64,000 nt of DNA from Candidatus Parcubacteria bacterium (lineage in GTDB: Bacteria; Patescibacteriota; Patescibacteriia; Patescibacteriales; UBA12465). Position numbers and translations under genes: made by a program. How positions within the stretch are numbered: position 1 is the first letter of the stretch; each line of letters opens with the position of its first letter. The notes under the pieces were generated by a model. That model was given only the letters and a program-made list of their open reading frames with translations, did no database searches and had not been told where the DNA came from. Positions 10,036-24,442 of this stretch are shown here, piece after piece. The stretch spans positions 133,470 through 197,469 of the forward strand of contig AP029158.1 in NCBI GenBank assembly GCA_037076615.1. The letters run 5' to 3'.

Positions 10036-10038
10036 TAT

Positions 10039-11151: not shown

Positions 11152-11154
11152 TAT

Positions 11155-12003: not shown

Positions 12004-12008
12004 ATAAT

Positions 12009-15000
12009 ATGAACACATTAAACGAAAACAACCTAACAGAACAATCACTTATCGAATGGTTACAAGGTCAGGGTTATGAGTATGTGTATGGCCCAGCCAT
12101 GGCACCGAATCAACCTAACGCCGAGCGTGAGGATTTTCGAAGTGTTGTACTCAAGAATAGACTTATTACTTCTGTACGTCGTTTTAATCCACAACTTCCA
12201 GTTCAACAAGCAGAGCAAGTTGTAGATGATATTGCCTTATATCACAACGCTGATGCAATGCTTGGCAACAAAGAAATGTTTACTCTCATTACTGAAGGAG
12301 TGAAAAAGACATGGCAAGAAGACGGTATAGAAAAAACAGAAGTTGTCAAACTTATTGATTTTGAAAATGCAGAAGCAAATGATTTCTTAATAACGAATCA
12401 ATTTACCGTTCAGGGCGTAGAGAATGTTTGTCGTCTTGATGGAGTAGTTTTTGTGAACGGTATTCCGCTTTCAGTATTAGAGCTCAAGAGTCCTGTGCGT
12501 GAAAAAGCAACAATCGGCCAAGCTTATCGAGATATGGAATACTACAAAAAAGAGATTCCAAAGATGTTTTTGTATAACCAAGTGCTTTGTCTTAGCGATC
12601 TTACCGAAGCGAAACACGGAACAATTTCTTCTTCTTGGGAATGGTATGGAACATGGAAAGGAGTCAACTCAGAAGGAGATGCTCCGAGTGGTGCGACTGA
12701 ACTCGAGGTGCTTGCAAAAGGTCTTTTTAATAAAAAACGGTTTCTTGATCTCATTTACAACTTCATAGTTTTTGAAGCTGATGGTGATGGTGATGCGGTT
12801 ACGTACACAAAGAAGATGGCTTTATACCATCAATACTATGGTGTAAATAAAACTATTGATAGCACTGTTCGTTCGGTGAGTGGTGAACAAGATCGAAAAA
12901 TCGGCGTTTTTTGGCACACACAGGGATCTGGAAAGTCACTCTCTATGGTATTTTATGTGAACAAAACAAAACGCATTCCAGAATTAAAAAGTCCTGCATA
13001 TGTATTTTTAACTGATCGTGAAGATTTGGACGATCAACTCTTCAAGACATTTAGTCGTACAGGATACGGCACTCTTGCCAAGCGGGCATCGAGTATTAAG
13101 GATCTGAAGGGCAAACTTACTCATCTTGGAAGTGAACTTATTTTCACCACTATTCAAAAATTTCAAGATGACCCTGATGCAAATAATGTTTTAAGTGACA
13201 GAGAAAACATCATTGTTCTTACTGACGAGGCGCATCGAACTCAGTACAGCATGCTTGCTGGTAATGCGAGACAAGCTTTGCCTAATGCGAGTTTTTTAGG
13301 TGTGACAGGAACTCCGCTTTCAAATCATGATAAAAACACAATGCGTGTTTTCGGTGACATCATAAGTTCATACAAAATTGGGCAAGCTGTGAAAGATAAA
13401 GCAACCGTTCCTATTTACTATGAAGGTCGCTTAATCCCACTTCATTTAGCTGATAAATTTATAGACAGTAAACTCGATGAAATTCTTGGGGAAATTGTGG
13501 TTGATGAAAAAGTAAAAGCCCGCAGGGAATGGGCAGTTCTTGAAGAAGTTGTGGGCGCACCAAGTCGTATTGAACAAATCGCCAAAGATGTCGTTTCTCA
13601 CTTTAATAATCGACCGATTGAAGGAAAAGCAATGGTGGTTACAATGAGCCGATCTATTGCAGTTGCGATGTATAACGCAATAAAGAATATTGAAGGAGCG
13701 CCTGAGTGCGCCGTCATTATTTCTGGAATGGATGATTTCCCAGAGCAGATTCAAGGTGAGCATGATGTGAAAAAACTCGAGAAGAGATTTAAGAAATCAA
13801 ACGACGCACTTCGACTGGTTATCGTTTGTGATATGTGGCTCACTGGTTTTGACGTGCCTAATATGCATACAATGTATCTTGATAAGCCACTCAAGAATCA
13901 TGGGCTTATGCAGGCGATTGCTCGCGTGAATCGTGTTTATAAAGATAAGCCAGGTGGATTGATTGTTGACTATATTGGTATTGCTGAGAATTTAAAAAAA
14001 GCTCTTGCTATATATGACACAGATGTTCAAAAAGAAGCAATGATTCCGCTTGATGACGTTATTGCGGAAATGAACATCCTCCACAGAGAGGTGTCTTTAT
14101 ATTTTTCAAATATAGATTTTTCGGGATGGAGAAATAAAAAAGGTATTGAATTAGTTGAATTATTTCAATCATCAATGAATGAGGTTATTTCAAAAGATGG
14201 CATCCTGTCTGATGACAGGAAAATGGTATATATAGGGCTTGTGTCTAAACTTTCAAGTCTCCACGCTCTTGTAATGCCAGGTGAGGAAGCGATGAAGATT
14301 GCAACTGATATTCAGTTCTTTCAATCTATTCGTGAGGCGATAAATAAACAAACTGTAATACCTCATATTATCTTTCCTGAAGCTACAGAGAGCGCTATTC
14401 GCAGTCTTGTTCAAGATTCTGTACAAGCAGAAGGCGTTATTGATTTGTTTACTAAAGAAGGCGAAGAAGGAAAAAGTATTTCTATTTTTGACGAGCGCTT
14501 TTCGGAAGAGATTAAGAAGGTTAAATATCAAAACCTTGCTATCGACACTATTCGTAAGATGCTAGATAAAGAAATTAGCGTGCGTTCTCGAACGAATAAG
14601 GCTCGTTATGAAACGATGCTTACACTACTCACGGAACTTATTGAGAAATACGAAAATAATGTTATTAACTCTTCAGAAATTATAAAACATTTGCTTGAAA
14701 TCGCAGATGAAATAAAAAAGCTAGATGCAGAAAGCGAAGAACTGGGATTGTCTGAAGAAGAGATTGTTTTTTATGACACGCTTTCATCTGACCCAGACCT
14801 TAAAAAGGCTGGATTAGACATTAAGGATTTTGTGCAAGAACTCACCAAAAGAATTCGCCGAGATATTTCGATTGATTGGATTAATAACGAAACTATTAAA
14901 GCAAGAATCAGGCAAAACGTCAGACTCCTTTTAATTCAGAAAGGAATTGTTGAAGAGAAGCAAACGGAAAAAATAGTTAATATAATATTTCTAGAAACAG

Positions 15001-15032
15001 CTAGAGTTTTTAGAGAGTATGTACCATCCTAA
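12009..15032 (+). CDS. hsdR: Type I restriction endonuclease subunit R
   Basis: Walker A HTQGSGKS, DEAH box LTDEAHRTQ, motif VI QAIARVNR and a long helical C-terminal domain. Confidence 0.9.
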   Translation: MNTLNENNLTEQSLIEWLQGQGYEYVYGPAMAPNQPNAEREDFRSVVLKNRLITSVRRFNPQLPVQQAEQVVDDIALYHNADAMLGNKEMFTLITEGVKKTWQEDGIEKTEVVKLIDFENAEANDFLITNQFTVQGVENVCRLDGVVFVNGIPLSVLELKSPVREKATIGQAYRDMEYYKKEIPKMFLYNQVLCLSDLTEAKHGTISSSWEWYGTWKGVNSEGDAPSGATELEVLAKGLFNKKRFLDLIYNFIVFEADGDGDAVTYTKKMALYHQYYGVNKTIDSTVRSVSGEQDRKIGVFWHTQGSGKSLSMVFYVNKTKRIPELKSPAYVFLTDREDLDDQLFKTFSRTGYGTLAKRASSIKDLKGKLTHLGSELIFTTIQKFQDDPDANNVLSDRENIIVLTDEAHRTQYSMLAGNARQALPNASFLGVTGTPLSNHDKNTMRVFGDIISSYKIGQAVKDKATVPIYYEGRLIPLHLADKFIDSKLDEILGEIVVDEKVKARREWAVLEEVVGAPSRIEQIAKDVVSHFNNRPIEGKAMVVTMSRSIAVAMYNAIKNIEGAPECAVIISGMDDFPEQIQGEHDVKKLEKRFKKSNDALRLVIVCDMWLTGFDVPNMHTMYLDKPLKNHGLMQAIARVNRVYKDKPGGLIVDYIGIAENLKKALAIYDTDVQKEAMIPLDDVIAEMNILHREVSLYFSNIDFSGWRNKKGIELVELFQSSMNEVISKDGILSDDRKMVYIGLVSKLSSLHALVMPGEEAMKIATDIQFFQSIREAINKQTVIPHIIFPEATESAIRSLVQDSVQAEGVIDLFTKEGEEGKSISIFDERFSEEIKKVKYQNLAIDTIRKMLDKEISVRSRTNKARYETMLTLLTELIEKYENNVINSSEIIKHLLEIADEIKKLDAESEELGLSEEEIVFYDTLSSDPDLKKAGLDIKDFVQELTKRIRRDISIDWINNETIKARIRQNVRLLLIQKGIVEEKQTEKIVNIIFLETARVFREYVPS

Positions 15033-15035
15033 AAT

Positions 15036-15977
15036 ATGATTAAAAAAATACTTTCAATTGATGGTGGTGGGATAAAAGGGGTTTTTCCTCTGTCTTTTTT
15101 AAGCACAATTGAAGAGGTGACTGGCAAAAAAATATCAGATTATTTCGATCTTATTGTTGGTACTTCAACTGGTGGTATTATTGCACTTGGCATTGGCGCT
15201 GGCTTTTCCGCAAAGGAACTATTAGAATTTTATGAAAAACTAGGCCCAGATGTGTTTGTTGGCAATAGGTATATTAAATTTTTAAGAAGCATGGGGGTAT
15301 CGAAATATAGCAATAAAGCATTAAAGAATTCCTTATTTGAAAAGTTTGGAGATAAAAAACTTGGTGAAAGCAAGAATAGACTTGTAATTCCTAGTTTAAA
15401 TCTTGAAAATGGAGAGGTTCATGTATATAAAACCGCTCATCATGAAAGATTCCAAAGAGATTATAAAGAAAATATTGTTGACATAGCCCTGGCGACATCA
15501 GCGGCTCCGACATATTTTCCGACTCATACTTCAGTTTCAGGCACCCCCTTGGTTGACGGTGGGTTATGGGCAAACAATCCAGCTGGCCTTGCTGTTGTCG
15601 AGGCGATAGGCATTCTTGAATGGCCTCGTGATCAATTAAAAGTGCTAAGTATAGGATGCACAGATGAGCCATTAAATATTAAGAGGGCACGCAATCACCC
15701 AGCAGGTTTATTTTATTGGGGAACAAGAATAGTTAAGTTGTTTATGTCGGCTCAATCCTCCGCTTCTTACGGAACCGCTCAATTGCTCGCAGGCCATTCC
15801 AATATTACAAGGATTAATCCTGTTGTCTCAAGTGGAAAATTTGGATTAGACGTTGTTAAAGAAATTAAATCACTTAAGGGGCTGGGAGAAACTGAGGCAC
15901 GCAAAGCTCTGCCAAATATTGAATTATTTTTTACTGACAAAGTTGACCCTTTTATTCCTAAACATCAATTACTATGA
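15036..15977 (+). CDS. Patatin-like phospholipase (CapV-like CBASS effector candidate)
   Basis: Oxyanion motif DGGGIKG, nucleophile elbow GTSTGG and catalytic Asp VDGGLWANNP. Confidence 0.85.
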   Translation: MIKKILSIDGGGIKGVFPLSFLSTIEEVTGKKISDYFDLIVGTSTGGIIALGIGAGFSAKELLEFYEKLGPDVFVGNRYIKFLRSMGVSKYSNKALKNSLFEKFGDKKLGESKNRLVIPSLNLENGEVHVYKTAHHERFQRDYKENIVDIALATSAAPTYFPTHTSVSGTPLVDGGLWANNPAGLAVVEAIGILEWPRDQLKVLSIGCTDEPLNIKRARNHPAGLFYWGTRIVKLFMSAQSSASYGTAQLLAGHSNITRINPVVSSGKFGLDVVKEIKSLKGLGETEARKALPNIELFFTDKVDPFIPKHQLL

Positions 15978-17362
15978 AATTGGAATCATCATTTAATGAC
16001 TTTTTAGAAAATACCGTTAATCTTAATGGGACGCGATATCAAATTGCAAAATCTGGGATCGAAACCATGAAAAGTATTTTGCAAAATGATGAAATTTTTG
16101 GAGATAAATTTATCTCTATTAAACCGCAGGGTTCTTTTAGACAAGAAACTATTATTAAGCCAGTTCGTTGTGGTACGGATTTTGATGTAGACATTCTTTT
16201 TGAGGTGAAGGCGACAGCTGGATGGGAGTCCAAAGATTATTTAAATAAACTTTCTTCCCAATTTAAAAAACTAGATAGATATAAAGATAAAGTTGACACA
16301 AGAGGAAAATCACGCTGTGTTACTATAGATTATGAGAACGATTTCCATATCGATATTGTTCCCGCTATAAATATTAGCAATCAGTCACTTGTGATGAATA
16401 AAACTGAGAATAAATTTGAGTTAACAGATGGAGATGGTTATGCAGAATGGTTTTATCGTCAGGATAGTATTACTGGTAAAAAATATCTTAAGAAAATAGT
16501 TAGACTTTTAAAATACATTCGTGATTTTAAGCAAGAGTTTGATATAAAATCTGTTGCATTAACAACTTTTGTCGGCAATCAAGTACTGTCTAGCGATAAC
16601 CTTGTTGATCAATATCCTGACCTATCCACTTCTTTTGTTCTTTTGCTTAGTCGTTTAGATTTATATTTACAATCTAATGCGGTAATGCCAATTATTGTAA
16701 ATCCAGTTCTTCCATCTGAAAATTTTAATCGTCATTTAAAGCAAGATGACTATCTAAAATTTAGAGACGCAATACACAAATATTCTCAAATAGCTCTTGA
16801 CGCATATAATGATGTTGACGAGCATAGAAGTTTATCTAAGTGGCAAAAGATCTTTGGCGATTCGTTTACCGTTAAAGAAAATAGAAATTTATCAGTTTCA
16901 ATAAATGGATTACATTTGGCAAATTTTAGTCACAAACAAGAATTGGCAGATTTAAATATACCAATTATTGATACTTTTGCATCTGTGGAAATTAGAGCAG
17001 GCCTATATTGGGGAAAGGGTGACTATAAAATAGTAAATAGAAGATTTAAAGGGTCCTTTTCTACAAAAAACGAATTGCCCAGATTCCATTGGCTAAAATA
17101 TACTGCAATTACAAATTATAACAAACCCTATGATGTGTATTGGCAGGTTGTTAACACTGGAGCCAGTGCTCAAAGCCAAGGCGCTAAAGGTTTGAGGGGT
17201 GAAATTAAATTGGGTTCCAATGAACAATGGGAAAGAAGTTTATATACAGGTGTTCATTGGGTAGAGTGTTTTATTGTTGATATAGCTACAAACGCATGTG
17301 TGTGTCGTAGCGGACCATTTTATGTAGGCTTTCAGGAAAGAGTTGGTGATGTGTCCGATTAA
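15974..17362 (+). CDS. CD-NTase/SMODS-type nucleotidyltransferase with a C-terminal AGS-C-like sensor domain
   Basis: Pol-beta NTase signature QGSFRQET..(14 aa)..DFDVDILF plus a third acidic motif FHIDIVPA. ATGA overlap with the patatin gene. The C-terminal ~150 aa are non-NTase; the AGS-C call is from memory. Confidence 0.7.
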   Translation: MKLESSFNDFLENTVNLNGTRYQIAKSGIETMKSILQNDEIFGDKFISIKPQGSFRQETIIKPVRCGTDFDVDILFEVKATAGWESKDYLNKLSSQFKKLDRYKDKVDTRGKSRCVTIDYENDFHIDIVPAINISNQSLVMNKTENKFELTDGDGYAEWFYRQDSITGKKYLKKIVRLLKYIRDFKQEFDIKSVALTTFVGNQVLSSDNLVDQYPDLSTSFVLLLSRLDLYLQSNAVMPIIVNPVLPSENFNRHLKQDDYLKFRDAIHKYSQIALDAYNDVDEHRSLSKWQKIFGDSFTVKENRNLSVSINGLHLANFSHKQELADLNIPIIDTFASVEIRAGLYWGKGDYKIVNRRFKGSFSTKNELPRFHWLKYTAITNYNKPYDVYWQVVNTGASAQSQGAKGLRGEIKLGSNEQWERSLYTGVHWVECFIVDIATNACVCRSGPFYVGFQERVGDVSD

Positions 17363-17370
17363 TTAGTAAT

Positions 17371-17631
17371 ATGAGAAAATTTTATATAGACAACAGGATA
17401 GATTGGCTTAGTACCATATTTTATATTATAGGTATGCCATTTAGATTAATCGATTGGTTAATAAAAAAGATGTTCAAGTATTTAAAAATTATAATTTCAG
17501 ATATTTTCCACGGTGTATATAAAAAACTTATAGCTATTATTGTGTTTGTTATTGTAATTTTTATTATGCTTTATATTTCTAACCTTACTCATGTTCAGGA
17601 GTTAAAAAGTTTACCTTTAATTGTTAAGTAA
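17371..17631 (+). CDS. Small two-helix membrane protein (86 aa)
   Basis: Hydrophobic segments WLSTIFYIIGMPF and LIAIIVFVIVIFIMLYI. Starts 8 nt after the NTase gene. Confidence 0.45.
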   Translation: MRKFYIDNRIDWLSTIFYIIGMPFRLIDWLIKKMFKYLKIIISDIFHGVYKKLIAIIVFVIVIFIMLYISNLTHVQELKSLPLIVK

Positions 17632-17675
17632 ATAAAGGTCGAATAAAAAATACAAAAATTATTAACTAAAAATAT

Positions 17676-17888
17676 ATGGATAAGCCAAAGTATATTCGCA
17701 ATGCTGGCAAACCATGGACTCCTCAGGAAGAGAAAAAATTGTTTCAACTTGCTAAAGTCAATACTCCAACCAGAGTTATGGGTCTTGAGCTTGGAAGACC
17801 AGTAGGAGGAATTCAAAGCAAGGCTAGTCAATTAGGAATTAGTTTGAAGCCAACTAACCAATCCCCCTATAATCGCAAAACCAAATAG
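17676..17888 (+). CDS. Small SANT/Myb-like HTH protein (70 aa)
   Basis: KPWTPQEEKKLFQLAKVNTPTRVMGLELGRPVGGIQSKASQLGI resembles a single Myb-type repeat. Confidence 0.4.
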   Translation: MDKPKYIRNAGKPWTPQEEKKLFQLAKVNTPTRVMGLELGRPVGGIQSKASQLGISLKPTNQSPYNRKTK

Positions 17889-17906
17889 TAAATTTAATAG
17901 AAATTT

Positions 17907-17935
17907 TAAAATACGCCCAAATGGGCGTATTTTTG
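17907..17935 (+). terminator. Intrinsic terminator ending the long R-M/CBASS gene string
   Basis: ATACGCCC-AAAT-GGGCGTAT (17911-17930) followed by TTTTT. Confidence 0.65.
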
Positions 17936-17999
17936 TAATTGTAGACAAACTGTAGGTAACTTTTCTTTACTTTTAGGCCTGTTTAAGCTATATTTTAAG

Positions 18000-18147
18000 T
18001 GCGAAACCACAATTGAATATTCCGAAAGAAGCATGAAAAATGCTGTCATTTGTATACAGGAACGGGCACTCCGACCCTATACAAGTGGCAGTCTTTCGGG
18101 ACACCAATTGTGGTTTCGCAACCAAGGTCGGGTGTCCGTTTTTGTTT
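18000..18147 (+). promoter_or_regulatory. Riboswitch-like structured 5' leader with a terminator-type expression platform
   Basis: Perfect 16-bp long-range helix 18000-18015 / 18105-18120 encloses nested helices 18022-18029/18092-18099, 18030-18034/18040-18044 and 18050-18056/18078-18084. Alternative pairings end at a T-run (18139-18143). Confidence 0.5.
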
Positions 18148-18175
18148 AGTGAAATTAAATATTAATATAAAAAAT

Positions 18176-18844
18176 ATGGATAATATTATTGGATTTATAC
18201 TTTTTATTTCTTTCCTATCCTTTTTTGTCGGGCTAATAAAGCCCAGCATTTTTAGCAGAGTTTTTAAAAATAAAAAGGAGATAAATCGCAAATTTATACT
18301 AAAAGTTTTTGGCTCTAGCACTTTCGCCCTATTATTAATACTAGGAATGGTATCTGAAAACAAGTCTGATAATATTGATCCAATAGTTAATAATTCGGCT
18401 GAGGTGTTTGTTGAAGAAAAGGCTGAAAGTTTTGTAGAAGAAATTCAAGAAGATGAGGCACTGTCTCAGGATGAGCTTGTTAGTGCCAATCAAGCAGAGC
18501 CTGTAACGACTAAAATCGTGACTGAAAACAAAGAGGAGGTCGCCCATGTCACCAATCAGCCCGCCAAAGAGATAAATAATGCAAAAACAGATAACGCTCC
18601 TGGTACAGAAATAATTAAGACAGACCTAACTCCACCCACAGAAGAAAGTGAGCCAGTTCAGCCAACTAAAGCTGTAGTTAGCGGGAAGTTTTATACCTCA
18701 TCTCATGGTAGTGCCAAGTACTATTATCCTGCAAGTTGTTCTGACTGGCAAAATTTAAGTCAAAGCTATTTACGAGAGTTTGATTCTTTAGAATCTTTAT
18801 TAAAAAAATATCCGTCTAGGACCTTAAGTCCTACGTGTAATTAA
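18176..18844 (+). CDS. Membrane-anchored protein with an acidic linker and a small Cys-containing C-terminal domain
   Basis: Start moved to MDNIIGF because the ORF-track N-terminus reads through the structured leader. Two N-terminal TM helices. C-terminus is GKFYTSSHGSAKYYYPASCSDW...SPTC. Confidence 0.5.
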   Translation: MDNIIGFILFISFLSFFVGLIKPSIFSRVFKNKKEINRKFILKVFGSSTFALLLILGMVSENKSDNIDPIVNNSAEVFVEEKAESFVEEIQEDEALSQDELVSANQAEPVTTKIVTENKEEVAHVTNQPAKEINNAKTDNAPGTEIIKTDLTPPTEESEPVQPTKAVVSGKFYTSSHGSAKYYYPASCSDWQNLSQSYLREFDSLESLLKKYPSRTLSPTCN

Positions 18845-18853
18845 TAAAAATAT

Positions 18854-19057
18854 ATGAAAAAGAAAACACCCGCCGCTTTATTAGCACTTTTTCTAGGAGG
18901 ATTTGGAATTCATAAGTTCTACCTAGGCAAAACCACTCCAGGAGTTTTTTACCTTTTATTTTGCTGGACATTTATACCGGCGATTTTGGCATTCATCGAT
19001 TTTATAATAATATTATCGACCAACAAAGAAGCATTTAATAAAAAGTATAACGTTTAG
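18854..19057 (+). CDS. TM2 domain protein (67 aa)
   Basis: LALFLGGFGIHKFYLGKTTPGVFYLLFCWTFIP matches the TM2-domain pattern. Confidence 0.6.
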   Translation: MKKKTPAALLALFLGGFGIHKFYLGKTTPGVFYLLFCWTFIPAILAFIDFIIILSTNKEAFNKKYNV

Positions 19058-19509
19058 TTCGGCTGATTATCAATAGGATAGTGACCGTATTTTTGCTTAT
19101 ACATGTTAAATGCTTCATAAATTGATTTACTCTGTTGCTTGTTAAAACCTTTACTTTTTGTAGTCCCGCATTGGTCACATTTTTCTCCGATTTTAACCTC
19201 TTTTTTCGGAGGCTGAAAAATGACTGGCATTTTAGGGTAGTATCTCGAATCGTTGTTAGCAAGGAAATACCTAATTGACGGCCCGTCTCCTTCGTTTATT
19301 TTCTTATATAAAGCCATTTCTGTAATATCAATCAATTCTTTTCTGCCAAAATGCAAAGCATTGTCTACTTTCTCTTTGAAATTAGCATTGTTTTTTATCC
19401 AGCGATATATTGTTGCCTTGCTAATCCCAACTTTTTTACAGGCATAGCTTATAAAAGGTCTTTCTCTAAGAATTTCCAGAAATTTAGATTTTTCTAGATT
19501 AGTTCTCAT
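19054..19509 (-). CDS. HTH DNA-binding protein (terminase-small-subunit-like N-terminus)
   Basis: ACKKVGISKATIYRWIKNN helix-turn-helix. Overlaps the upstream ParB-MTase gene by 11 nt. Confidence 0.45.
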   Translation of the reverse strand: MRTNLEKSKFLEILRERPFISYACKKVGISKATIYRWIKNNANFKEKVDNALHFGRKELIDITEMALYKKINEGDGPSIRYFLANNDSRYYPKMPVIFQPPKKEVKIGEKCDQCGTTKSKGFNKQQSKSIYEAFNMYKQKYGHYPIDNQPN

Positions 19510-20833
19510 ATATTTTCACTCTTTTTTTGCCCGTCATTTTTTCCCAGCGATTAAGTATTACCTCTGCATAGACAGGTGATTTTTCCATCAGAAAACAACG
19601 GCGACCTATTTTATTAGAAGCAATAAGAGTGCTTCCGCTTCCACCAAAAGGCTCAAGTACTAACTGCCCCCGAGTCGTTAGTACTTTTATGTATGGGATA
19701 AGTATTTCTAGTGGCTTAGTGCCAAAGATTATGCCTTGTCCTGATGATTGCTCGTCGGCCGCTTTAAACTCTATAAAATCTGTAGGGCAATACTTTTTAC
19801 CTTTGCCATATGATTCCCAGTGAGGTTTGCCAGAAATAGCAAACAGAGCAGTCTCGTATTCATTTTTTACTAACTCATCTTCTGGCTCTTCATTAGCCTC
19901 AGTAAAATTTTCACTGGTGCCAACCATAGCGATGTCATACTTTGAAAAGAATTTATGCTTTGAAGCATAACCCTGGTTTCTGTTAGGTAAATGCCAGACT
20001 AACATATTCCTTACTTTCCAATATTTTTCCATCTCGCCCCAAATGATGCGAATATTTTTCCAATTCTCATAAACAATAATTGAAAAGTTTTCTGCTTGTA
20101 CTTTAGAAACATTGGCCATCCATAGCTCTGTAAAGTTGTCGGGCAAAGAATCCGTCTCCAAATAGCGCCTATTTTTCTTAGCGCCAAATCCAGTGGTTGC
20201 CTCGCCGTGCCTAGATTTACCGTGCAGATAATCCAGAATATATGGTGGGTCAGTCATGACCATATCGATCTTGTGATCTCCGACCAGTCTTAGCATGTCA
20301 GCTTCGATGGTACTATCTCCGCACATTAGCCGTGAACCGTCCAGATCATAGACATCGCCTTTCTTGACGCTTATCTCCTCAATATTTAGCTTTTTCAATT
20401 CTTTCTCTAAATCGAAGATTTCGGTATTGTCCTCATCCTCGAAGATATCATCCAATTCTTCGGAATCGAAGCCAATGTCCTGCAAGAACGCTTCATCAAA
20501 TTCGGCAAGTAGACCGTAGTCGAATTCGCCAAGATTCTTATTGAGCCTGAGATTTAGTTCTTTTTCCTTTTCTAAATCAGGAATGTTTATATAGCAGACT
20601 GGCACAGTCTCGAAGCCTAGTTCCTTGGCCATCTGCCAGCGAAAGTGTCCGCCGATTATGACATTCATCCGCTCCGGAGCGGAATTGACTACGAAGGGAT
20701 CGACGAGGCCGAAGCGTCGTAGGCTCTCCTTGAGCTGTTCACTTGCTTCCTTATCCCACTTGCGGGGATTGTATTCAGCGGGTCTTAACTCGCCGATGGG
20801 CAGGTAAGTCACCTGCAAATCTTTTCTTTCCAT
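19499..20833 (-). CDS. ParB-like nuclease domain fused to a DNA (N4/N6) methyltransferase
   Basis: ParB N-terminal LPIGELRPAEYNPRKW, catalytic motif TDPPY and SAM motif EPFGGSGSTLIAS. Confidence 0.8.
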   Translation of the reverse strand: MERKDLQVTYLPIGELRPAEYNPRKWDKEASEQLKESLRRFGLVDPFVVNSAPERMNVIIGGHFRWQMAKELGFETVPVCYINIPDLEKEKELNLRLNKNLGEFDYGLLAEFDEAFLQDIGFDSEELDDIFEDEDNTEIFDLEKELKKLNIEEISVKKGDVYDLDGSRLMCGDSTIEADMLRLVGDHKIDMVMTDPPYILDYLHGKSRHGEATTGFGAKKNRRYLETDSLPDNFTELWMANVSKVQAENFSIIVYENWKNIRIIWGEMEKYWKVRNMLVWHLPNRNQGYASKHKFFSKYDIAMVGTSENFTEANEEPEDELVKNEYETALFAISGKPHWESYGKGKKYCPTDFIEFKAADEQSSGQGIIFGTKPLEILIPYIKVLTTRGQLVLEPFGGSGSTLIASNKIGRRCFLMEKSPVYAEVILNRWEKMTGKKRVKIYEN

Positions 20834-21105
20834 ATTTTTAGTCGGGGTATTTTTGTAATAAAAAAGTCCAAGAAAAACTCAAAAATACCCCTATTAGAAA
20901 ATAGGAATTCTTGAACTTTTCTCGGACTTTCCTTTAGGGGTGCATTTTATTGCTACCTGGTCAGGATTACCGAACGGTAATATCTATGATATTGGTCGTG
21001 TGGCGGTTTAAAACGTTTAGAGCTTATAGCTGTTTCACGTCCTCGTTTTTGCCTGTTTCCGTGAGGCTCACGAGCACCCGCCCGGGGGGAATAAAGAACT
21101 CAGAA

Positions 21106-21133
21106 ACTATATTCATCTTACCACGGATGTCAA
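21106..21133 (-). promoter_or_regulatory. Near-consensus promoter for the ParB-MTase transcript (~265-nt leader)
   Basis: On the minus strand: TTGACA (plus coordinates 21128-21133), 16-nt spacer, TATAGT (21106-21111). Confidence 0.45.
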
Positions 21134-21292
21134 TATTGGTTAATAATAACTGTTTTAGGATGGGATTGTAAGTTGTAAATAACCTTGATTTTACTGGGTT
21201 TTTGTGATATTTTAAATTGATACATAAATTCTTGACCCTGTCATAGCATATCCCTAAAAATGATTATGACATGTGGATAAAGCACCTCATCT

Positions 21293-22057
21293 ATGAAGAT
21301 AATTAAAAAGATTATCGCAAAGAATAGAATAAAGAGAGAGATGAATGACGTTCTGGCTATAAAGCAGCTGGTGTTAGCTCATCTGCATGAATTAATAAAG
21401 CGTCGCAAAGAGATTGATGAAAATCTTTTTGAAGTGACAGCCTTTTTATTAGATGAAATAGGAGATGCTCTTGCCGCTATTATAACTTTAAAAAAGGATC
21501 ATTTGAAAAGTAGTATCATGATTTCTAGATATATATTAGAGGACTGTGTTAATTTGCAATATATCTATAAAGAAGATTCAGAAAAAAGAGCTTTAAATTA
21601 CAGAGCTTTTTCGGCAAAGGAATTATTAAATAGAGCAGAGATGTATGAGGGGGATGATGACAGAATTAAAAAAGAAATTCCAAGAATTAAAGAAAGGGCT
21701 GAAAAATATTCTCCTTCTGGAAAAAATTCTAATCATTGGGATGGTTTGTCTACTAAAAAAATAATGTCCGATTTAAATTTAGAAGGTATATATCAAATTT
21801 GGTATGTTAGAATGTCTTCTTACATCCACCCACAGTATAGGGGAAGCAAAATAAGATCTAGTGATAAGGGTGAGTATATAGAATTTTTGAAGAAAATGGT
21901 GTTTAAAGATTTAAATCTTCCAATACTCGAATCTTTAAGAGCGGTAAATAAGAAATTTGATTTGCTTGAAGGCGCAGTTATCATTAGTAATTATCCAAAA
22001 GAAAAAGCTACCTTAGTTTTTAGTATCAATGAGCGCAGAGAGCCAAAAAGGCCATGA
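21293..22057 (+). CDS. Hypothetical protein, possible HEPN-type (AbiV/DUF5677-like) abortive-infection protein
   Basis: All-helical 254-aa ORF. Candidate Rx4-6H motif RMSSYIH, and SRYILEDCVNLQYIY resembles DUF5677-type proteins (from memory). Confidence 0.35.
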   Translation: MKIIKKIIAKNRIKREMNDVLAIKQLVLAHLHELIKRRKEIDENLFEVTAFLLDEIGDALAAIITLKKDHLKSSIMISRYILEDCVNLQYIYKEDSEKRALNYRAFSAKELLNRAEMYEGDDDRIKKEIPRIKERAEKYSPSGKNSNHWDGLSTKKIMSDLNLEGIYQIWYVRMSSYIHPQYRGSKIRSSDKGEYIEFLKKMVFKDLNLPILESLRAVNKKFDLLEGAVIISNYPKEKATLVFSINERREPKRP

Positions 22058-22073
22058 AAAAAATTCATTAAAT

Positions 22074-22101
22074 TTGACTTTTCATTAATTTATGCTATAA
22101 T
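22074..22101 (+). promoter_or_regulatory. Near-consensus promoter
   Basis: TTGACT (22074-22079), 16-nt spacer, TATAAT (22096-22101). Confidence 0.55.
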
Positions 22102-22107
22102 ATAATT

Positions 22108-22300
22108 GTACTTAACAAACATAACTCTAGCACTGAGTCTAAAAAGTGCCATTTATTTCTCCTGTTTTATACAGGTAGGCAAGCTGGGAAATCTGTGGCA
22201 AGCTAAATGGAATAAGTGACTGATCGCTGAAGGCGGTTGGGAGATTTCAATCTAAGAGATAGCAATATCTTTTGATGAAATCTCTTAGCCGCTTTTTTTT
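22108..22300 (+). ncRNA. About 190-nt non-coding transcript or attenuator leader ending in a strong intrinsic terminator
   Basis: No ORF longer than about 11 codons found by manual scan of the plus strand. Hairpins GCACT..AGTGC and CCTGT..ACAGG. Terminator arms GCGGTTGGGAGATTTCA (22233-22249) and TGAAATCTCTTAGCCGC (22276-22292) followed by T8. Confidence 0.5.
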
Positions 22301-22332
22301 GTTTGTTGAGCTAGAAAGAGAGGTGATAAAAT

Positions 22333-22860
22333 ATGATAAAATTAAATAGTATTGAAGAAATGATGCAAGAGCATTGCTCTAGAATTTATTGGGAAATAGA
22401 TGATATTGATGAAAATGTTATGTTTATGGTAGCTAAAATTAACGAACAGAATTTATCTGCAGATTTAGAGAAGATGGCACGAGACCTTTTGGCTGATTTC
22501 ATTGGAGCCACTACAATTCTTAGAAGTGCTGCTATAGAGCTGGGTGAAAAGTTCGCTTGGTTTATGTTTGACCCTGGAGTAGAAAGAATAAAATTGCCAG
22601 AACTAGACACTGGAGATATTGCTCAGCTAATAAGCGATTTACTAAATGAGCAAGCAGTTAAATTTAATGACTTTATTAAGGTTCTTGAGAAAAAAAGAAA
22701 AAACAAGGAAATTGATAGTGGCATGATTGTCTTATTCTGTGAATCAGGTGGAAACATCATGAGAGATAAAGGAGAGGTCATTAACTCCTTAAGATTTTTA
22801 GCTAATAATTATAATAAATACCAATATGAAATTAACTCAAAAAATACAACAAGCAATTAA
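22333..22860 (+). CDS. Hypothetical acidic helical protein (175 aa)
   Basis: Preceded by AGAGAGGTGA 8 nt upstream, the strongest Shine-Dalgarno-like site among the starts I checked. The 3' end overlaps the next gene by 35 nt. Confidence 0.55.
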   Translation: MIKLNSIEEMMQEHCSRIYWEIDDIDENVMFMVAKINEQNLSADLEKMARDLLADFIGATTILRSAAIELGEKFAWFMFDPGVERIKLPELDTGDIAQLISDLLNEQAVKFNDFIKVLEKKRKNKEIDSGMIVLFCESGGNIMRDKGEVINSLRFLANNYNKYQYEINSKNTTSN

Positions 22861-23407
22861 TCTAGCTAGTCGCCTGCATTTAGGCCAAGTTAGAAAGGGC
22901 GATTCAGGTTTGCCTTATATCAGCCACCCTTTTTCGGTAGCCTGGATATTAAGTAATTATACTGAAGATGAGGATGTGATTATCGGTGGACTGCTTCACG
23001 ACGTTTTAGAGGACGTCAAAGGTTATTACTATGATGATCTGGTTAGGGATTTCGGCGAAAGAGTGGCTCAGATAGTTAAGGGTGTAAGCGAGGATAAAGA
23101 TCCTAATATTGAAAGTGATGAAAGGGCTACTTGGGAAGAACGAAAGTCAAAGTACTTGGCCGGCTTAGAGCACGATAGCGATGAAGCTCTAATGGTTTGC
23201 GCGGCTGATAAAATTCACAATCTTCAGTCCATGATAGACGCTTATCAAGAGAAAGGCGAAGAACTTTGGGCAAATTTTAACTCTCCAAAAGAGAAGAAGC
23301 TCTGGCTTTATTATGAGATTTTAAAGTTTATGAAGGGAAAGCTTAATAATCCAATAGTTGATGAGCTAGAAGAGGTTTATGGTCGGGCAGAGAAAATATT
23401 GTTATAA
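22826..23407 (+). CDS. RelA/SpoT-type HD-domain hydrolase (small alarmone hydrolase-like)
   Basis: LHLGQVRKGDSGLPYISHPFSVAWIL...LLHDVLEDV is the HD(p)ppGpp-hydrolase signature. No synthetase domain is present. Confidence 0.75.
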   Translation: MKLTQKIQQAINLASRLHLGQVRKGDSGLPYISHPFSVAWILSNYTEDEDVIIGGLLHDVLEDVKGYYYDDLVRDFGERVAQIVKGVSEDKDPNIESDERATWEERKSKYLAGLEHDSDEALMVCAADKIHNLQSMIDAYQEKGEELWANFNSPKEKKLWLYYEILKFMKGKLNNPIVDELEEVYGRAEKILL

Positions 23408-23426
23408 TAAAATAAATATCAAATTT

Positions 23427-23855
23427 ATGACTAAAACAATAAAAATTTGGCTCTTAAAACTTTTTCCTTTAATCATTATTTATCTGTTATTTTTAATTAA
23501 ATTTATTGGTAACAGTGATTATGAATCTTTAATTGTTTTGCTGGCAGCGCTACCTTTAACTATTTATATTTTTACTGAAAATATAAAGCTAAAGAAAAAT
23601 TTACAATATTTACTTTATTTTTTTATTGTAGGAATTATAATTTATTGGGTATTTGCATCTTATGGTTTAATATGGGGGATCTTTAATGGACAATTTATGT
23701 TCTCTGGCTTCTCCTGTTTTTTTACTGGCTGTTACGGAGAAACAGGTTGGGGTTTATTTACTCAAAGCGCATTATTTACTGTTGATTTAAAGGTATTACT
23801 TTATTTAGCTGTTATTTTTCTTGCAATTAAAAATAGAAGATTAGTTCGTAATTAA
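23427..23855 (+). CDS. Multi-pass membrane protein (142 aa from MTKTIKIW)
   Basis: Four hydrophobic segments. Start moved from the ORF-track 23379 to the first ATG past the overlap with the SAH gene end. Confidence 0.45.
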   Translation: MTKTIKIWLLKLFPLIIIYLLFLIKFIGNSDYESLIVLLAALPLTIYIFTENIKLKKNLQYLLYFFIVGIIIYWVFASYGLIWGIFNGQFMFSGFSCFFTGCYGETGWGLFTQSALFTVDLKVLLYLAVIFLAIKNRRLVRN

Positions 23856-23869
23856 GGCGCACAGATTAT

Positions 23870-24025
23870 ATGGTTAGCATGAAGGAATTTAAAAAAAGAT
23901 TAGGAAATACGGCAAATAATTATAGCGAAGAAGAGTTGATAAAATTAAGGGAAGATATGGACGGACTAGCTAACTTTTTGCTAGATGAATATGTTGATAA
24001 ATTAAAGGGCGGTAAAAAGGTTTAA
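23870..24025 (+). CDS. Small helical protein (51 aa), below the ORF-track cutoff
   Basis: Hand translation MVSMKEFKKRLGNTANNYSEEELIKLREDMDGLANFLLDEYVDKLKGGKKV. It is the last ORF before the island's right repeat. Confidence 0.3.
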   Translation: MVSMKEFKKRLGNTANNYSEEELIKLREDMDGLANFLLDEYVDKLKGGKKV

Positions 24026-24084
24026 TTCGCCTTGTATTTGTATAACGCTGATTATGTCTATGTTTGTCAAATAATACATAAAAT

Positions 24085-24142
24085 AAGATTTATTATAGTG
24101 TCTCATTTGTCTCATTTTTATTCTCAGACCCCGACCCGAGTA
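24085..24142 (+). repeat. Right copy (T2) of the tRNA-Ser trailer repeat; putative attR region
   Basis: AAGATTTATTAT..CTCATTTGTCT..GACCCGAGTA is co-linear with the trailers at 6652-6682 and 34750-34807. Contains a tandem TGTCTCATT x2 (24099-24116). Confidence 0.55.
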
Positions 24143-24185
24143 CTTAAAATCAGTTTTAGAATTATCTTTTAAAACCCCTTATAAT

Positions 24186-24425
24186 ATTGCTATAGGGTGG
24201 TACTTAACCCGACTGGCCCGCATCTAAAAATACAACCCGAAAGGGTTGTATTTTTAGATGTGTGTAACAATGATGAGAACCTTTAGGTTCGACTGCCGAG
24301 GATAACGAGCGAAATGAAAACTTGGTTTTCATTTTTGAGCGACGCAGGCAGAAAAGGGCGGCTTGGCCGCCCTGTTATCCCTTGCTCTCCGCCCATAAAA
24401 AAAACACCCTTCCGGGTGTTCTTTT
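24186..24425 (+). ncRNA. Candidate structured non-coding RNA (class unknown)
   Basis: TATAAT at 24180-24185 and no ORF longer than 15 codons. Perfect 18-bp hairpin with a GAAA loop (24221-24260). Further hairpins AAATGAAAAC/GTTTTCATTT and GGGCGGC/GCCGCCC. Terminator AACACCC-TTCC-GGGTGTT (24403-24420). Confidence 0.35.
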
Positions 24426-24442
24426 ATAGTTAAGACTTTATT

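What the first reader, a model, noticed from the sequence alone, without database searches (positions are those of the whole stretch)
18000..19057. Riboswitch-like multi-helix leader with competing terminator pairings upstream of two membrane-protein genes
A perfect 16-bp long-range helix joins TGCGAAACCACAATTG (18000-18015) to CAATTGTGGTTTCGCA (18105-18120). It encloses 89 nt that form nested helices:
- CCGAAAGA/TCTTTCGG (18022-29 / 18092-99)
- AGCAT-GAAAA-ATGCT (18030-44)
- TTGTATA/TATACAA (18050-56 / 18078-84)

Downstream, GGTCGGGTGTCCG (18126-38) followed by a T-run has two possible partners. One is CGGGACACC (18097-105), which would steal bases from the inner helix. The other is CGGGCACTCCGACC (18063-76), in the apical loop. 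This mutually exclusive architecture is what a ligand-controlled transcription terminator looks like.

I cannot match it to a riboswitch class I know. The ORF-track start at 18050 reads through this RNA, so the real start is probably 18176. The controlled genes encode a 2-TM protein with a Cys-containing C-terminal module and a TM2-domain peptide.
Basis: seen in the sequence. Interest (0 to 1): 0.7.

Follow-up and report, generated by a model that had tools for sequence, protein, structure and literature searches.

The report
New pseudoknotted leader RNA of mobile elements
The finding is a real, previously uncatalogued family of about 145-base folded RNAs that sits behind its own promoter in mobile DNA islands of tiny "candidate phyla" bacteria, ends in an unusual knot-shaped stop signal, and precedes ever-changing accessory and defence genes; it is probably a built-in brake on those genes, not a metabolite sensor.

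Summary
The region folds far better than shuffled sequence (z = -7.2). No Rfam 15 family matches it.

Scans anchored on its 3' tail and on its apical loop, followed by covariance-model searches, recovered 94 homologues (88 distinct). Of the 66 from reference genomes, 30 carry Patescibacteria/CPR-lineage names.

- **Fold:** P1, P2 and P4 show extensive compensatory change (41 of 47 pairs; 95% of cells paired). G-U pairs outnumber A-C mismatches 261 to 47, so this is an RNA of the + strand.
- **Tail pairing:** the tail GGUCGGGUGUCCG pairs with the P4 apical loop (18063-76) as a 13-bp pseudoknot. All three natural tail variants are compensated in the loop.
18097-105 is not compensated.
- **Ends:** a conserved promoter puts the start at the first base of P1. 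A conserved U-tract follows the pseudoknot.
- **Downstream:** a co-directional ORF begins about 44 nt later in 92% of loci. These genes are very diverse (membrane proteins, restriction enzymes, methylases).
- **Neighbours:** serine recombinase, TerS-like HTH protein and ParB-methylase genes lie within 5 kb in about half of the loci.

Best reading: a leader RNA with a pseudoknot-type terminator that attenuates cargo genes. The mechanism is inferred. A metabolite riboswitch is unlikely.

The parts
17908..17939 (+). Hairpin AAAATACGCCCA/TGGGCGTATTTT plus a T-run. It is a terminator-like end of the preceding 70-aa gene, so the RNA starts a transcription unit of its own.
   Evidence: 12-bp perfect inverted repeat I4; sequence. 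Equivalent hairpins precede the promoter in other loci that have co-directional upstream genes.
17941..17960 (+). Conserved operator-like direct repeat GTAGACAAAC TGTAGGTAAC, immediately upstream of the -35 box (family consensus GTAGRYAAAYTGTWGGTAAC).
   Evidence: Conserved block in the alignment of upstream regions from many loci, whatever gene lies upstream. The operator function is inferred.
17966..17994 (+). Sigma-70-type promoter: TTTACT (17966-71), 17-nt spacer, TATATT (17989-94). It predicts a start at about 18000-18002, the first bases of P1.
   Evidence: Promoter scan. The positions of the -35 and -10 boxes relative to P1 are conserved across the family (consensus cTTtAcTTTT..TATAtTttAagT|GCgAAAC).
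18000..18143 (+). The structured RNA itself: 144 nt from the first base of P1 to the end of the U5 run.
   Evidence: Covariance models R1 and R2 match 18000-18143 at 181.8 and 146.5 bits. z = -7.4. No Rfam match.
18000..18015 (+). P1, 5' strand. It pairs with 18105-18120 (16 bp).
   Evidence: 15 of 16 pairs show compensatory change in the family. Also recovered by an unfitted MAFFT/RNAalifold run.
18020..18029 (+). P2, 5' strand. It pairs with 18092-18101 (10 bp, one U-G pair).
   Evidence: All 10 model pairs of helices 2 and 3 show compensatory change.
18030..18044 (+). P3 hairpin (AGCAU-GAAAA-AUGCU). This is the variable arm of the three-way junction.
   Evidence: Its length and sequence vary widely among homologues while a hairpin is kept.
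18045..18089 (+). P4 arm: an 11-bp stem (18045-55 / 18079-89, two U-G pairs) carrying the conserved apical region.
   Evidence: All 11 pairs show compensatory change and 98.3% of cells are paired. Recovered in the unfitted alignment.
18063..18076 (+). Segment A, CGGGCACUCCGACC, in the P4 apical loop (family consensus CGGRCAYNCCGACC). It is the 5' strand of the pseudoknot with the tail.
   Evidence: 13 pairs, 99.9% of cells paired. A varies only as R at position 4, Y at position 7 and N at the bulge, exactly what keeps pairing to the tail. The three tail variants are compensated here. Duplex energy about -24 kcal/mol.
18097..18105 (+). Segment B, CGGGACACC (family CGGAYAC): the 3' strand of lower P2 and the P2/P1 junction.
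   Evidence: Complementary to the tail in most members (median -14.3 against -8.1 kcal/mol for shuffles). Not compensated when the tail varies (about -7 kcal/mol in L200 and L218).
18105..18120 (+). P1, 3' strand.
18126..18138 (+). Segment T, GGUCGGGUGUCCG: the 3' strand of the pseudoknot. It lies 5 nt after P1 here (0-5 nt across the family).
18139..18147 (+). U-tract UUUUUGUUU directly abutting the pseudoknot. Together they look like an intrinsic terminator.
   Evidence: Sequence. The U5 run is present in all 25 metagenome hits although that search pattern did not ask for it.
18176..18844 (+). First downstream gene: a 222-aa protein with two predicted membrane helices. Its C-terminal ~50 aa are shared with Parcubacteria micrococcal-nuclease-like proteins. 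The start codon is 32 nt after the last U of the U5 run (18143).
   Evidence: Gene call on source contigs. Few homologues. No Pfam or NCBIfam hit.
18854..19057 (+). Second downstream gene: a 67-aa TM2-domain protein.
   Evidence: Pfam TM2, E = 1.3e-18.

Best explanation
Window 18000-18143 (+) is one member of a previously uncatalogued family of structured RNAs of about 145-155 nt. They are carried by integrative mobile elements and defence islands, mostly in Patescibacteria (CPR) genomes.

**Anatomy**
- The RNA is transcribed from its own conserved sigma-70-type promoter, and the 5' end falls at the first base of P1.
- It folds into a long P1 (16 bp), an internal loop and P2 (10-13 bp).
- P2 opens into a three-way junction with a variable hairpin P3 and an 11-bp P4.
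- The invariant apical loop of P4 (CGGRCAYNCCGACC) pairs with the invariant 3' tail (GGUCGGGUGUCCG) in a 13-bp G+C-rich pseudoknot.
- That pseudoknot ends exactly at a U-tract.

**Proposed mechanism (inferred)**
- The pseudoknot plus the U-tract acts as an intrinsic terminator whose 'hairpin' is closed by a long-range tertiary pairing.
- Most transcripts end there as a nuclease-resistant RNA with both ends buried.
- The fraction that reads through expresses whatever accessory or defence cargo gene lies about 44 nt downstream.
- The element is therefore a portable promoter-leader-attenuator cassette for cargo genes.
- Read-through could be set kinetically, because a long-range pairing forms slowly.
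- Alternatively, read-through could be set by a factor that masks the apical loop.

**Status of each step**
- Shown: the family, the fold, the pseudoknot, the strand, the promoter and U-tract conservation, and the variable downstream genes.
- Inferred: termination, attenuation and any regulation.
For: **Fold and stability**
- z = -7.2 to -9.7 in three divergent members.

**Family**
- 94 full-length + strand matches at 90-147 bits; reverse-strand scores are 38 bits or less.

**Covariation**
- 95.2% of cells are paired and 41 of 47 pairs show compensatory change.
- 0 of 500 shuffles reach the observed value, and the slid-partner controls give 37-49% paired.
- An unfitted MAFFT/RNAalifold alignment recovers P1 and P4, with 20 of 32 predicted pairs compensatory.

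**Strand**
- G-U/U-G 261 against A-C/C-A 47 in the helices.

**Pseudoknot**
- 13 pairs, 99.9% of cells paired.
- A was not constrained in the 66 genome hits, yet it always pairs.
- Tail variants: L181 (G to A), L200 (U to C) and L218 (two changes) are each matched by changes in A. A:T stays at -23 to -25 kcal/mol.

**Promoter and ends**
- The -35 and -10 boxes are conserved in position.
- The U5 run is present in every metagenome hit although the search did not require it.

**Leader position**
- 78 of 85 distinct loci have a co-directional ORF of at least 40 aa starting 5-120 nt after the U-run. The median is 44 nt and the mode 45-49 nt.

**Cargo diversity**
-.

**Mobile-element context**
- In the window: a serine recombinase next to tRNA-Ser, type I restriction-modification, CBASS, and a ParB-methylase.
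- Synteny in L074/L076 and across the loci.
Against: - There are no expression data, so termination at the U-tract and read-through are unproven.
- The simple terminator scan did not call this site, because the stem is long-range.
- Whether the pseudoknot can close in cis is untested. The linkers are very short (P1 to T 0-5 nt, A to P4 1-3 nt). Closure needs P1, P2 and P4 to form a bent, roughly triangular arrangement. The same covariation would arise from pairing in trans.
- 59% of loci carry a further segment downstream of the U-tract that can pair with the tail. Segment B is also complementary to the tail in most members. A plain constitutive attenuator does not explain either.
- Both collection scans were anchored on the tail or the loop. 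The apparent invariance of GUCGG and CCG in those segments is therefore partly imposed by the search.
Confidence: 0.5

Rival explanations
1. It is a stand-alone stable small RNA whose main job is in trans for the mobile element. It could be an immunity or copy-sensing RNA of the phage P4 CI type, whose exposed apical loop pairs with the tail of nascent transcripts and terminates them. It could also be a protein decoy. On this view the cargo genes merely occupy a recombination hot spot behind it.
For: - Both RNA ends are buried in helices, which suits a stable product.
- A loop of a stable stem-loop RNA that is complementary to a site next to a termination point in the same leader is the logic of P4 CI RNA with seqA/seqC (PMC4825925).
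- The short linkers make closure in cis geometrically demanding, whereas pairing in trans has no such limit.
- The elements carry TerS-like and recombinase genes reminiscent of phage satellites.
- Several copies can occur in one genome or contig: L074/L076, and pairs of loci from single MAGs.
Against: - No additional tail-like or loop-like target sites were found within +/-5 kb in 93 loci or in the window.
- Every nascent transcript already carries its own loop, so a trans partner is not needed.
- The fixed spacing of about 44 nt to an ORF in 92% of loci points to a leader.
- There is no Rfam C4/CI match.
Confidence: 0.22
2. It is a riboswitch. The three-way junction plus the pseudoknot would form an aptamer for a small molecule or ion, and ligand binding would stabilise or prevent the loop-tail pairing and so set termination.
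For: - Conserved complex fold with a pseudoknot adjoining a U-tract, placed in a 5' leader.
- Alternative partners of the tail exist both upstream (B) and downstream (C).
- A few conserved unpaired bases (aGGAA) precede the loop segment.
Against: - The junction has no conserved unpaired core, and P3 is hypervariable.
- Downstream genes are functionally unrelated cargo.
- P1 is a 15-16-bp helix, far stronger than the short, ligand-sensitive P1 of known riboswitches (established knowledge).
- No Rfam riboswitch match even at E = 10.
- The B:tail pairing is not maintained by covariation.
Confidence: 0.07
3. It is a processive antitermination RNA, comparable to HK022 put or Bacillus EAR. On this view the promoter-proximal RNA modifies the transcribing polymerase so that it reads through terminators scattered in the heterogeneous cargo.
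For: - It lies immediately after the promoter.
- It precedes long, variable, horizontally acquired gene sets.
- Part of the helix sequence is conserved as sequence (UGCNAAAC in P1), which would suit protein or polymerase recognition.
Against: - A strongly conserved terminator-like pseudoknot plus U-tract is part of the element itself.
- There is no match to the EAR or other antiterminator models in Rfam.
- In many loci only one or two short genes follow before a convergent operon, so there is little need for processivity.
Confidence: 0.08
4. It is a 5' stabiliser or RNase III processing stem for the cargo mRNA. The long duplex (P1 stacked on P2, or on the pseudoknot) would be cut or would block 5' decay, and the U-tract would be incidental.
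For: - 26 or more base pairs of nearly continuous duplex at the very 5' end.
- Helix lengths are held constant while the sequence covaries.
Against: - This does not explain the invariant loop-tail pseudoknot or the invariant U-tract.
- A stabiliser would not need a three-way junction.
Confidence: 0.08
5. It is a DNA-level element, not an RNA: a MITE-like palindrome, a recombination site or a cruciform.
For: - A perfect 16-bp inverted repeat in the window.
- A location in a mobile island beside a recombinase in many loci.
Against: - The mismatch bias is strand-specific: G-U 261 against A-C 47.
- The model scores 90-147 bits on the + strand and 38 bits or less on the - strand.
- There is a single copy in 64 kb.
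- Its position is fixed between a promoter and an ORF.
- The flanks show no target-site duplication.
Confidence: 0.03

Closest known systems
Intrinsic (Rho-independent) terminators used as 5' leader attenuators
   Same: A G+C-rich duplex ends directly at a U-tract. It lies between a promoter and the first ORF, and downstream expression has to come from read-through.
   Different: The 'stem' is not a local hairpin. It is a 13-bp pseudoknot between the tail and the apical loop of a three-way-junction domain 49 nt upstream. No leader peptide, T-box, protein-binding motif or aptamer could be recognised.
Phage-satellite P4 CI immunity RNA, and the related P1/P7 C4 RNAs (Rfam C4 family)
   Same: A mobile-element RNA in an untranslated leader. 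A sequence displayed on a stable stem-loop is complementary to a site in the same transcript, and that pairing is tied to premature termination (PMC4825925).
   Different: - There is no sequence or structure match to the Rfam model.
- Here there is one well-supported target (the tail), not seqA plus seqC.
- Processing by RNase P and action in trans are unknown.
- The RNA is about twice as long and has a three-way junction.
- The hosts are CPR bacteria.
Gifsy-1 prophage IsrK (a small RNA and a read-through mRNA from one promoter)
   Same: A prophage promoter gives a short terminated RNA and, through a leaky terminator, a longer transcript that carries downstream ORFs (PMC4825925).
   Different: There is no homology. 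IsrK's terminator is an ordinary hairpin. Interaction between a short and a long isoform is only a possibility here; the downstream tail-complementary segment C in 59% of loci hints at isoform-specific folding.
Riboswitches with pseudoknot-coupled terminators (for example ZTP or preQ1 classes)
   Same: A multi-helix leader in which a long-range pseudoknot involves the sequence next to the terminator U-tract.
   Different: No conserved ligand-pocket nucleotides, hypervariable P3, a 16-bp P1, unrelated downstream genes and no Rfam match.
Variable defence hot spots of P2 prophages and P4 satellites (Rousset et al. 2022, PMC9122126)
   Same: A conserved flank inside a mobile element is followed by a slot in which unrelated anti-phage or accessory genes are exchanged.
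   Different: Here the conserved left flank is a structured RNA with its own promoter and a fixed 5' UTR, and the elements use a large serine recombinase. I took only the paper's abstract; the comparison is by analogy.

Membership tests
Metabolite or ion riboswitch | Match to a described riboswitch class | tested here: not met
   Rfam 15 gave no hit at gathering scores on the window and on 14 homologous loci, or at E = 10 on 17850-18300.
Metabolite or ion riboswitch | Conserved structured aptamer supported by covariation | tested here: met
   41 of 47 pairs show compensatory change and 95% of cells are paired. The pseudoknot is 99.9% paired.
Metabolite or ion riboswitch | Highly conserved unpaired nucleotides forming a pocket at junctions | tested here: not met
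   In the consensus of 88 sequences the junction strands and P3 are not conserved. The invariant bases lie in the loop, the tail, segment B and outer P1, all of which are pairing segments.
Metabolite or ion riboswitch | Association with genes of one pathway or transport function | tested here: not met
   The first downstream genes include diverse membrane and zinc-ribbon proteins, GmrSD, Mrr, an EcoRI-type methylase, GIY-YIG, Nmad3 and bPH proteins.
Metabolite or ion riboswitch | Ligand-dependent structural switch | not testable with these tools
   This needs in-line probing or SHAPE and transcription assays.
Intrinsic terminator / transcription attenuator | G+C-rich duplex ending 0-2 nt before a U-tract | tested here: met
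   The tail strand 18126-38 pairs with 18063-76 (-24.3 kcal/mol) and is followed at once by UUUUUGUUU. This holds in all members. The duplex is long-range, so the simple hairpin scan misses it.
Intrinsic terminator / transcription attenuator | Located between a promoter and the regulated ORF, with no room for a second promoter | tested here: met
   The promoter is conserved at -35/-10 relative to P1. The ORF starts a median of 44 nt after the U-run in 78 of 85 loci. Absence of a second promoter is inferred from the short spacer only.
Intrinsic terminator / transcription attenuator | RNA 3' ends at the U-tract and partial read-through | not testable with these tools
   No transcript data are available here.
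P4 CI / P1 C4 antisense immunity RNAs | Match to the family's covariance model | tested here: not met
   No C4 or CI hit in the Rfam searches.
P4 CI / P1 C4 antisense immunity RNAs | Loop of a stable RNA complementary to sites in the same leader transcript | tested here: met
   Loop 18063-76 against tail 18126-38, with compensatory changes in L181, L200 and L218.
P4 CI / P1 C4 antisense immunity RNAs | Acts in trans on other copies; matured by RNase P | not testable with these tools
   An ACCA-like linker follows P1 in many members but is absent in 19 of 88. This is uninformative.
Retron msr-msd RNA | Terminal inverted repeat flanking the RNA, plus an adjacent reverse transcriptase gene | tested here: not met
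   The terminal inverted repeat is present. No reverse transcriptase domain was found among the window neighbours that were scanned, and none among the few conserved gene clusters of the 93 loci that were annotated.
MITE / DNA palindrome | Strand-symmetric inverted repeats, several copies, target-site duplication | tested here: not met
   G-U 261 against A-C 47. One copy in the window. The flanks TTAAG and ACCAA do not match.

The most novel reading that the evidence does not exclude
The RNA would be the core of a new RNA-only control module of CPR mobile elements, which may be phage satellites. A closed, roughly triangular fold of P1, P2 and P4 would be locked by a loop-tail pseudoknot that itself serves as the terminator. 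The released RNA would then act in trans, through the same loop-tail complementarity, on other copies of the element. That would give immunity or copy-number sensing while gating a universal expression slot for defence cargo. Function would converge on P4 CI RNA without any homology to it.
Probability: 0.15. Interest if true: 0.85.

Novelty: new variant of a known kind. Interest (0 to 1): 0.7.

Why it matters
**For RNA biology**
- CPR/Patescibacteria make up a large share of bacterial diversity, yet almost nothing is known about their regulatory RNAs or their mobile elements.
- This is a widespread family: 88 distinct sequences, 66 species-level genomes and 25 further metagenome contigs, from only two anchored scans.
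- It has strong covariation, is absent from Rfam 15, and I found no description of it in the searchable literature.
- Its terminator duplex is made by a tertiary pseudoknot. That is an unusual way to build a terminator, and a clean system for studying how long-range folding is timed against transcription.

**For mobile-element biology**
- The RNA marks a conserved promoter-leader cassette behind which restriction enzymes, methylases and membrane proteins are swapped.
- It can therefore serve as a sequence flag for finding cargo and defence slots, and the elements themselves, in uncultured bacteria.

**For annotation**
- The family explains spurious ORF calls such as the 264-aa reading from 18050.
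- It deserves a covariance model.

Tried and rejected
- **Known RNA classes.** Rfam at gathering and permissive thresholds, and ARAGORN, gave nothing at the site.
- **Phage genomes by BLAST.** No match.
- **The 16-mer of P1 in viral contigs.** The nine hits were all single-arm chance matches in coding DNA, for example MORN repeats in L006.
- **Neighbouring proteins as guides.**
  - The 222-aa protein is almost an orphan: 11 hits, ten of which share only its C-terminal module.
  - The 70-aa protein has 59 relatives in high-G+C prophages, but no similar RNA follows them.
  - Exact-protein look-ups returned only identical copies of the locus.
- **Internal 23-mer CCGAAAGAAGCATGAAAAATGCT.** No viral hit. 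P2 and P3 later proved to be variable.
- **Extra targets of the loop or tail** in the window and in +/-5 kb of 93 loci: none consistent.
- **L120 and L149.** They carry the tail 18-mer, but have no loop segment and no shared fold, so they were rejected as chance matches.
- **The 459-nt intergenic region 20834-21292** as a second RNA: no excess structure (z = 0.2 and -0.9) and no conservation beyond about 98 nt.
- **Element ends.** A direct-repeat search for the att-site pair of the island in the window gave no convincing pair.
- **Retron, MITE and integron-attC readings** were considered and rejected (see the membership tests).
- **Literature searches** for a prior description found none.
Full report
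**1. The observation**

- A perfect 16-bp helix, P1, joins 18000-15 to 18105-20 and encloses 89 nt.
- P2 is 18020-29 / 18092-101.
- The P3 hairpin is 18030-44.
- P4 is 18045-55 / 18079-89.
- The tail GGTCGGGTGTCCG lies at 18126-38 and is followed by TTTTTGTTT.

The unconstrained minimum-free-energy fold recovers all the helices at -66.2 kcal/mol. Shuffled sequence gives -36.7 +/- 4.1 (z = -7.2, 0 of 200 shuffles as stable). The opposite strand folds less well, at -57.4 kcal/mol. The element has about 46% G+C, against 32-36% for its surroundings.

**2. Not a catalogued RNA**

Rfam 15 gives only three tRNAs in the window at gathering thresholds. It gives nothing meaningful at E up to 10 around the site. 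ARAGORN agrees. Fourteen homologous loci also give no Rfam match at the RNA. Five literature searches found no description.

**3. Finding relatives**

Protein-guided routes failed.
- The downstream 222-aa protein is nearly an orphan, named by NCBI as a hypothetical protein of a Candidatus Parcubacteria bacterium.
- Exact-protein look-ups returned only identical copies of the locus.
- The upstream 70-aa protein is common in unrelated high-G+C prophages.

A scan of viral contigs with the tail 18-mer then hit two diverged copies in one IMG/VR contig, L074 and L076. In them P1 and P2 differ by compensatory changes, while the promoter, the apical loop and the tail are conserved.

Two large scans followed.
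- The tail 18-mer was run against one genome per species.
- A looser loop...tail pattern, with five and four free positions, was run against metagenome contigs.

A single-sequence covariance model (R1) then identified 93 full-length matches. They score 46-182 bits on the + strand and 38 bits or less on the reverse strand. A rebuilt model, R2, gives 94 matches (88 distinct) at 90-147 bits, with only one copy in the window.

Of the 66 genome records:
- 30 are labelled with Patescibacteria/CPR lineages: Parcubacteria, Falkowbacteria, Moraniibacteriota, Komeilibacteria, Saccharibacteria and Paceibacterota;
- 21 are third-party MAGs labelled 'uncultured Gammaproteobacteria';
- the rest carry generic or other labels.

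I did not verify these labels. One 'Gammaproteobacteria' MAG (L144) carries an RNA identical to the window's, so mis-binning or mobility of the element is likely.

**4. Structure and strand**

On the model-fitted alignment, 95.2% of cells form standard pairs and 41 of 47 pairs show changes on both sides. None of 500 shuffles reaches the observed values, and sliding the partners drops pairing to 37-49%.

A fitted alignment leans towards its model, so I repeated the test on a plain MAFFT alignment of 35 diverse members. RNAalifold independently predicts P1 and P4, and 20 of its 32 pairs have compensatory changes. P2 is lost there through misalignment of its 5' strand.

In the helices, G-U/U-G cells outnumber A-C/C-A cells 261 to 47. 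The selected structure is therefore that of an RNA read from the + strand, not a DNA palindrome.

P3 varies freely in length and sequence. P1 (15-16 bp) and P4 (11 bp) keep their lengths.

**5. The tail and its partners**

The family consensus has four invariant or near-invariant blocks:
- outer P1, UGCNAAAC...GUUUNGCA;
- the apical loop segment A, CGGRCAYNCCGACC;
- segment B, GGAYAC, in lower P2;
- the tail T, GGUCGGGUGUCCG, followed by U5.

*A:T.* This is a 13-bp duplex with one bulged base, worth about -24 kcal/mol.
- In the genome hits only T was imposed. A still pairs in every case.
- A varies only as R opposite U, Y opposite G, and N at the bulge.
- In the metagenome hits four tail positions were free, and three variants occur.
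  - L181: tail G to A with loop C to U.
  - L200: tail U to C with loop A to G.
  - L218: tail U to C opposite a loop G (a G-C pair), and tail G to A, which pairs with the next loop base after a one-base shift of the bulge.
- In all three, A:T stays at -23 to -25 kcal/mol.

The median is -14.3 kcal/mol, against -8.1 for shuffles. It falls to about -7 kcal/mol in L200 and L218, so covariation does not support it.

A segment C, 5-12 nt after the U-run, can pair with the tail in 59% of loci. The median is -11.6 kcal/mol, against -5.8 for shuffles. In L181 its CGGAUA pairs with the variant tail, but it pairs equally well with the usual tail (-15.4 kcal/mol either way), so this says nothing about co-variation. 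The window's copy lacks C.

*Linkers.* The linkers are short: P1 to T is 0-5 nt and A to the P4 3' strand is 1-3 nt. By my own geometric reasoning, closure in cis requires P1, P2 and P4 to form a bent, roughly triangular frame. Arms of about 45, 33 and 30 Å would permit that, but it is untested.

**6. Transcription signals and position**

TTTACT, a 17-nt spacer and TATATT (17966-94) place the start at the first bases of P1. The same spacing of -35 and -10 boxes is kept throughout the family, even where the box sequences differ. A direct repeat, GTAGRYAAAYTGTWGGTAAC (window 17941-60), sits just upstream in many loci. The upstream gene has its own terminator-like hairpin at 17908-33.

The U5 run after the tail is present in all metagenome hits, although the pattern did not demand it.

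In 78 of 85 distinct loci a co-directional ORF of at least 40 aa starts 5-120 nt after the U-run, with a median of 44 nt and a mode of 45-49 nt. The RNA is thus almost always a 5' leader, and the spacer leaves little room for another promoter (inference).

**7. Context**

In the window the RNA lies in a low-G+C island that contains, in order:
- tRNA-Ser (6560-6652);
- a large serine recombinase (6765-8087, - strand);
- a type I restriction-modification system;
- a patatin plus SMODS/AGS_C (CBASS-type) pair;
- after the RNA and its two membrane-protein genes, a convergent HTH protein weakly similar to small terminase subunits (19054-19509, - strand);
- a ParB-methyltransferase (19499-20833, - strand).

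L074 and L076 show the compact form: recombinase (divergent), RNA, small membrane protein, then convergent HTH, methylase and ParB-methylase.

Across the 93 loci, 49 have at least one of these genes within 5 kb. The recombinase is the immediately adjacent divergent gene in 19 of the 50 loci that have enough upstream sequence.

The genes directly behind the RNA differ from locus to locus. They include:
- zinc-ribbon membrane proteins;
- bPH-domain and other small membrane or secreted proteins;
- a GmrSD-type and an Mrr-type nuclease;
- an EcoRI-type methylase;
- a GIY-YIG protein;
- Nmad3.

The RNA therefore heads an exchangeable cargo slot.

**8. Mechanism**

Shown: the fold, the pseudoknot, the strand, the conserved promoter and U-tract, and the leader position in front of unrelated genes.

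Inferred: the pseudoknot plus the U-tract works as an intrinsic terminator whose stem is closed by tertiary pairing.
- Most transcripts would end as a compact RNA with both ends protected.
- Read-through would express the cargo.

Open questions:
- whether read-through is merely leaky or is regulated;
- whether the loop-tail pairing also works between molecules, as in P4 CI RNA immunity (PMC4825925);
- what role the downstream segment C plays.

A metabolite riboswitch is unlikely. The junction core is not conserved, P1 is very long, and the downstream genes have nothing in common. Put/EAR-like antitermination, a stabiliser or RNase III stem, and DNA-level readings are weaker still (see the rivals).

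**9. Caveats**

- Both large scans were anchored on the tail or the loop. Members with different anchors were missed, and part of the invariance of those blocks is imposed by the search.
- Covariance-model E-values are rough.
- Taxon labels are as deposited.
- There are no expression or probing data.

**10. Verdict**

It is a new, widespread, covariation-supported RNA family of CPR mobile elements.

The riboswitch label is probably wrong.

Noticed in passing
window 6560-25000: A genomic island of about 18 kb with lower G+C (0.32-0.38, against 0.42-0.46 in the flanks). It lies next to tRNA-Ser (6560-6652). It contains a large serine recombinase (6765-8087, -), type I restriction-modification genes (HsdM 8239-10035, HsdS 10039-11151, DUF2806 11155-12003, HsdR 12009-15032), a CBASS-like pair (patatin 15036-15977, SMODS/AGS_C 15974-17362), DUF5677 (21293-22057) and an HD-domain protein (22826-23407). 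Housekeeping tRNA synthetase genes resume at 25171.
   Followed up: partly
window 17660-17684, 18160-18184, 18838-18862: A 25-nt A+T-rich block (TATTAAnTAAAAATATATGgAtAAg) recurs at 80% identity immediately upstream of, and running into, the start codons of three consecutive genes (70 aa, 222 aa, TM2). It looks like a shared translation-initiation region without a classical Shine-Dalgarno sequence.
   Followed up: no
window 17941-17960, and the same position in many loci (e.g. L074 2741-2760): A conserved direct repeat, GTAGRYAAAYTGTWGGTAAC, lies just upstream of the RNA's -35 box. It is kept whether the upstream neighbour is the divergent recombinase gene or unrelated cargo. It may be an operator shared by divergent promoters.
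   Followed up: partly
window 17676-17888: The 70-aa protein upstream of the RNA has relatives of 50-67% identity in 59 IMG/VR contigs, mostly from high-G+C hosts. It matches PHROG 323 ('transcriptional regulator, D5-like'). It is not linked to the RNA elsewhere.
   Followed up: partly
L074 and L076 (both from IMGVR_UViG_3300042286_000458): One 32.5-kb 'viral' contig carries two diverged copies of the whole compact element (serine recombinase, RNA, 138-aa membrane protein, TerS-like HTH, methylase, ParB-methylase). No phage structural genes were seen in the stretches read. This suggests small integrative or satellite-like elements, not a prophage.
   Followed up: partly
L204, L218, L078 (gene immediately upstream of the RNA, - strand): In these loci the divergent neighbour of the RNA promoter is a 513-aa fusion. 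By reading its sequence, not by a domain search, it looks like a LexA/CI-like repressor joined to a DNA cytosine-5 methyltransferase. The layout recalls a repressor gene divergent from an early promoter.
   Followed up: no
window 18680-18844, and proteins P0002-P0011: The last ~50 residues of the 222-aa membrane protein (…YTSSHGSAKYYYPASCSDWQNL…SPTC) are shared at 49-73% identity with 308-365-aa proteins that carry the staphylococcal-nuclease domain PF00565; the one named organism among them is a Parcubacteria-group bacterium. This is a small Cys-containing module of unknown role.
   Followed up: no
about 5-45 nt after the U-run in 59% of homologous loci (e.g. L074 2960-2975); absent in window 18144-18175: A segment complementary to the tail (CGGACAU, CGGGCAU, CGGUCCCGACC...) would form a hairpin with the U-tract in its loop once transcription has read through. 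Its purpose is unexplained.
   Followed up: partly
window 20834-21292: An unusually long (459-nt) intergenic region lies between the ParB-methylase and the DUF5677 gene and has G+C-rich patches. There is no excess folding energy on either strand, and no conservation beyond about 98 nt next to the methylase start.
   Followed up: yes
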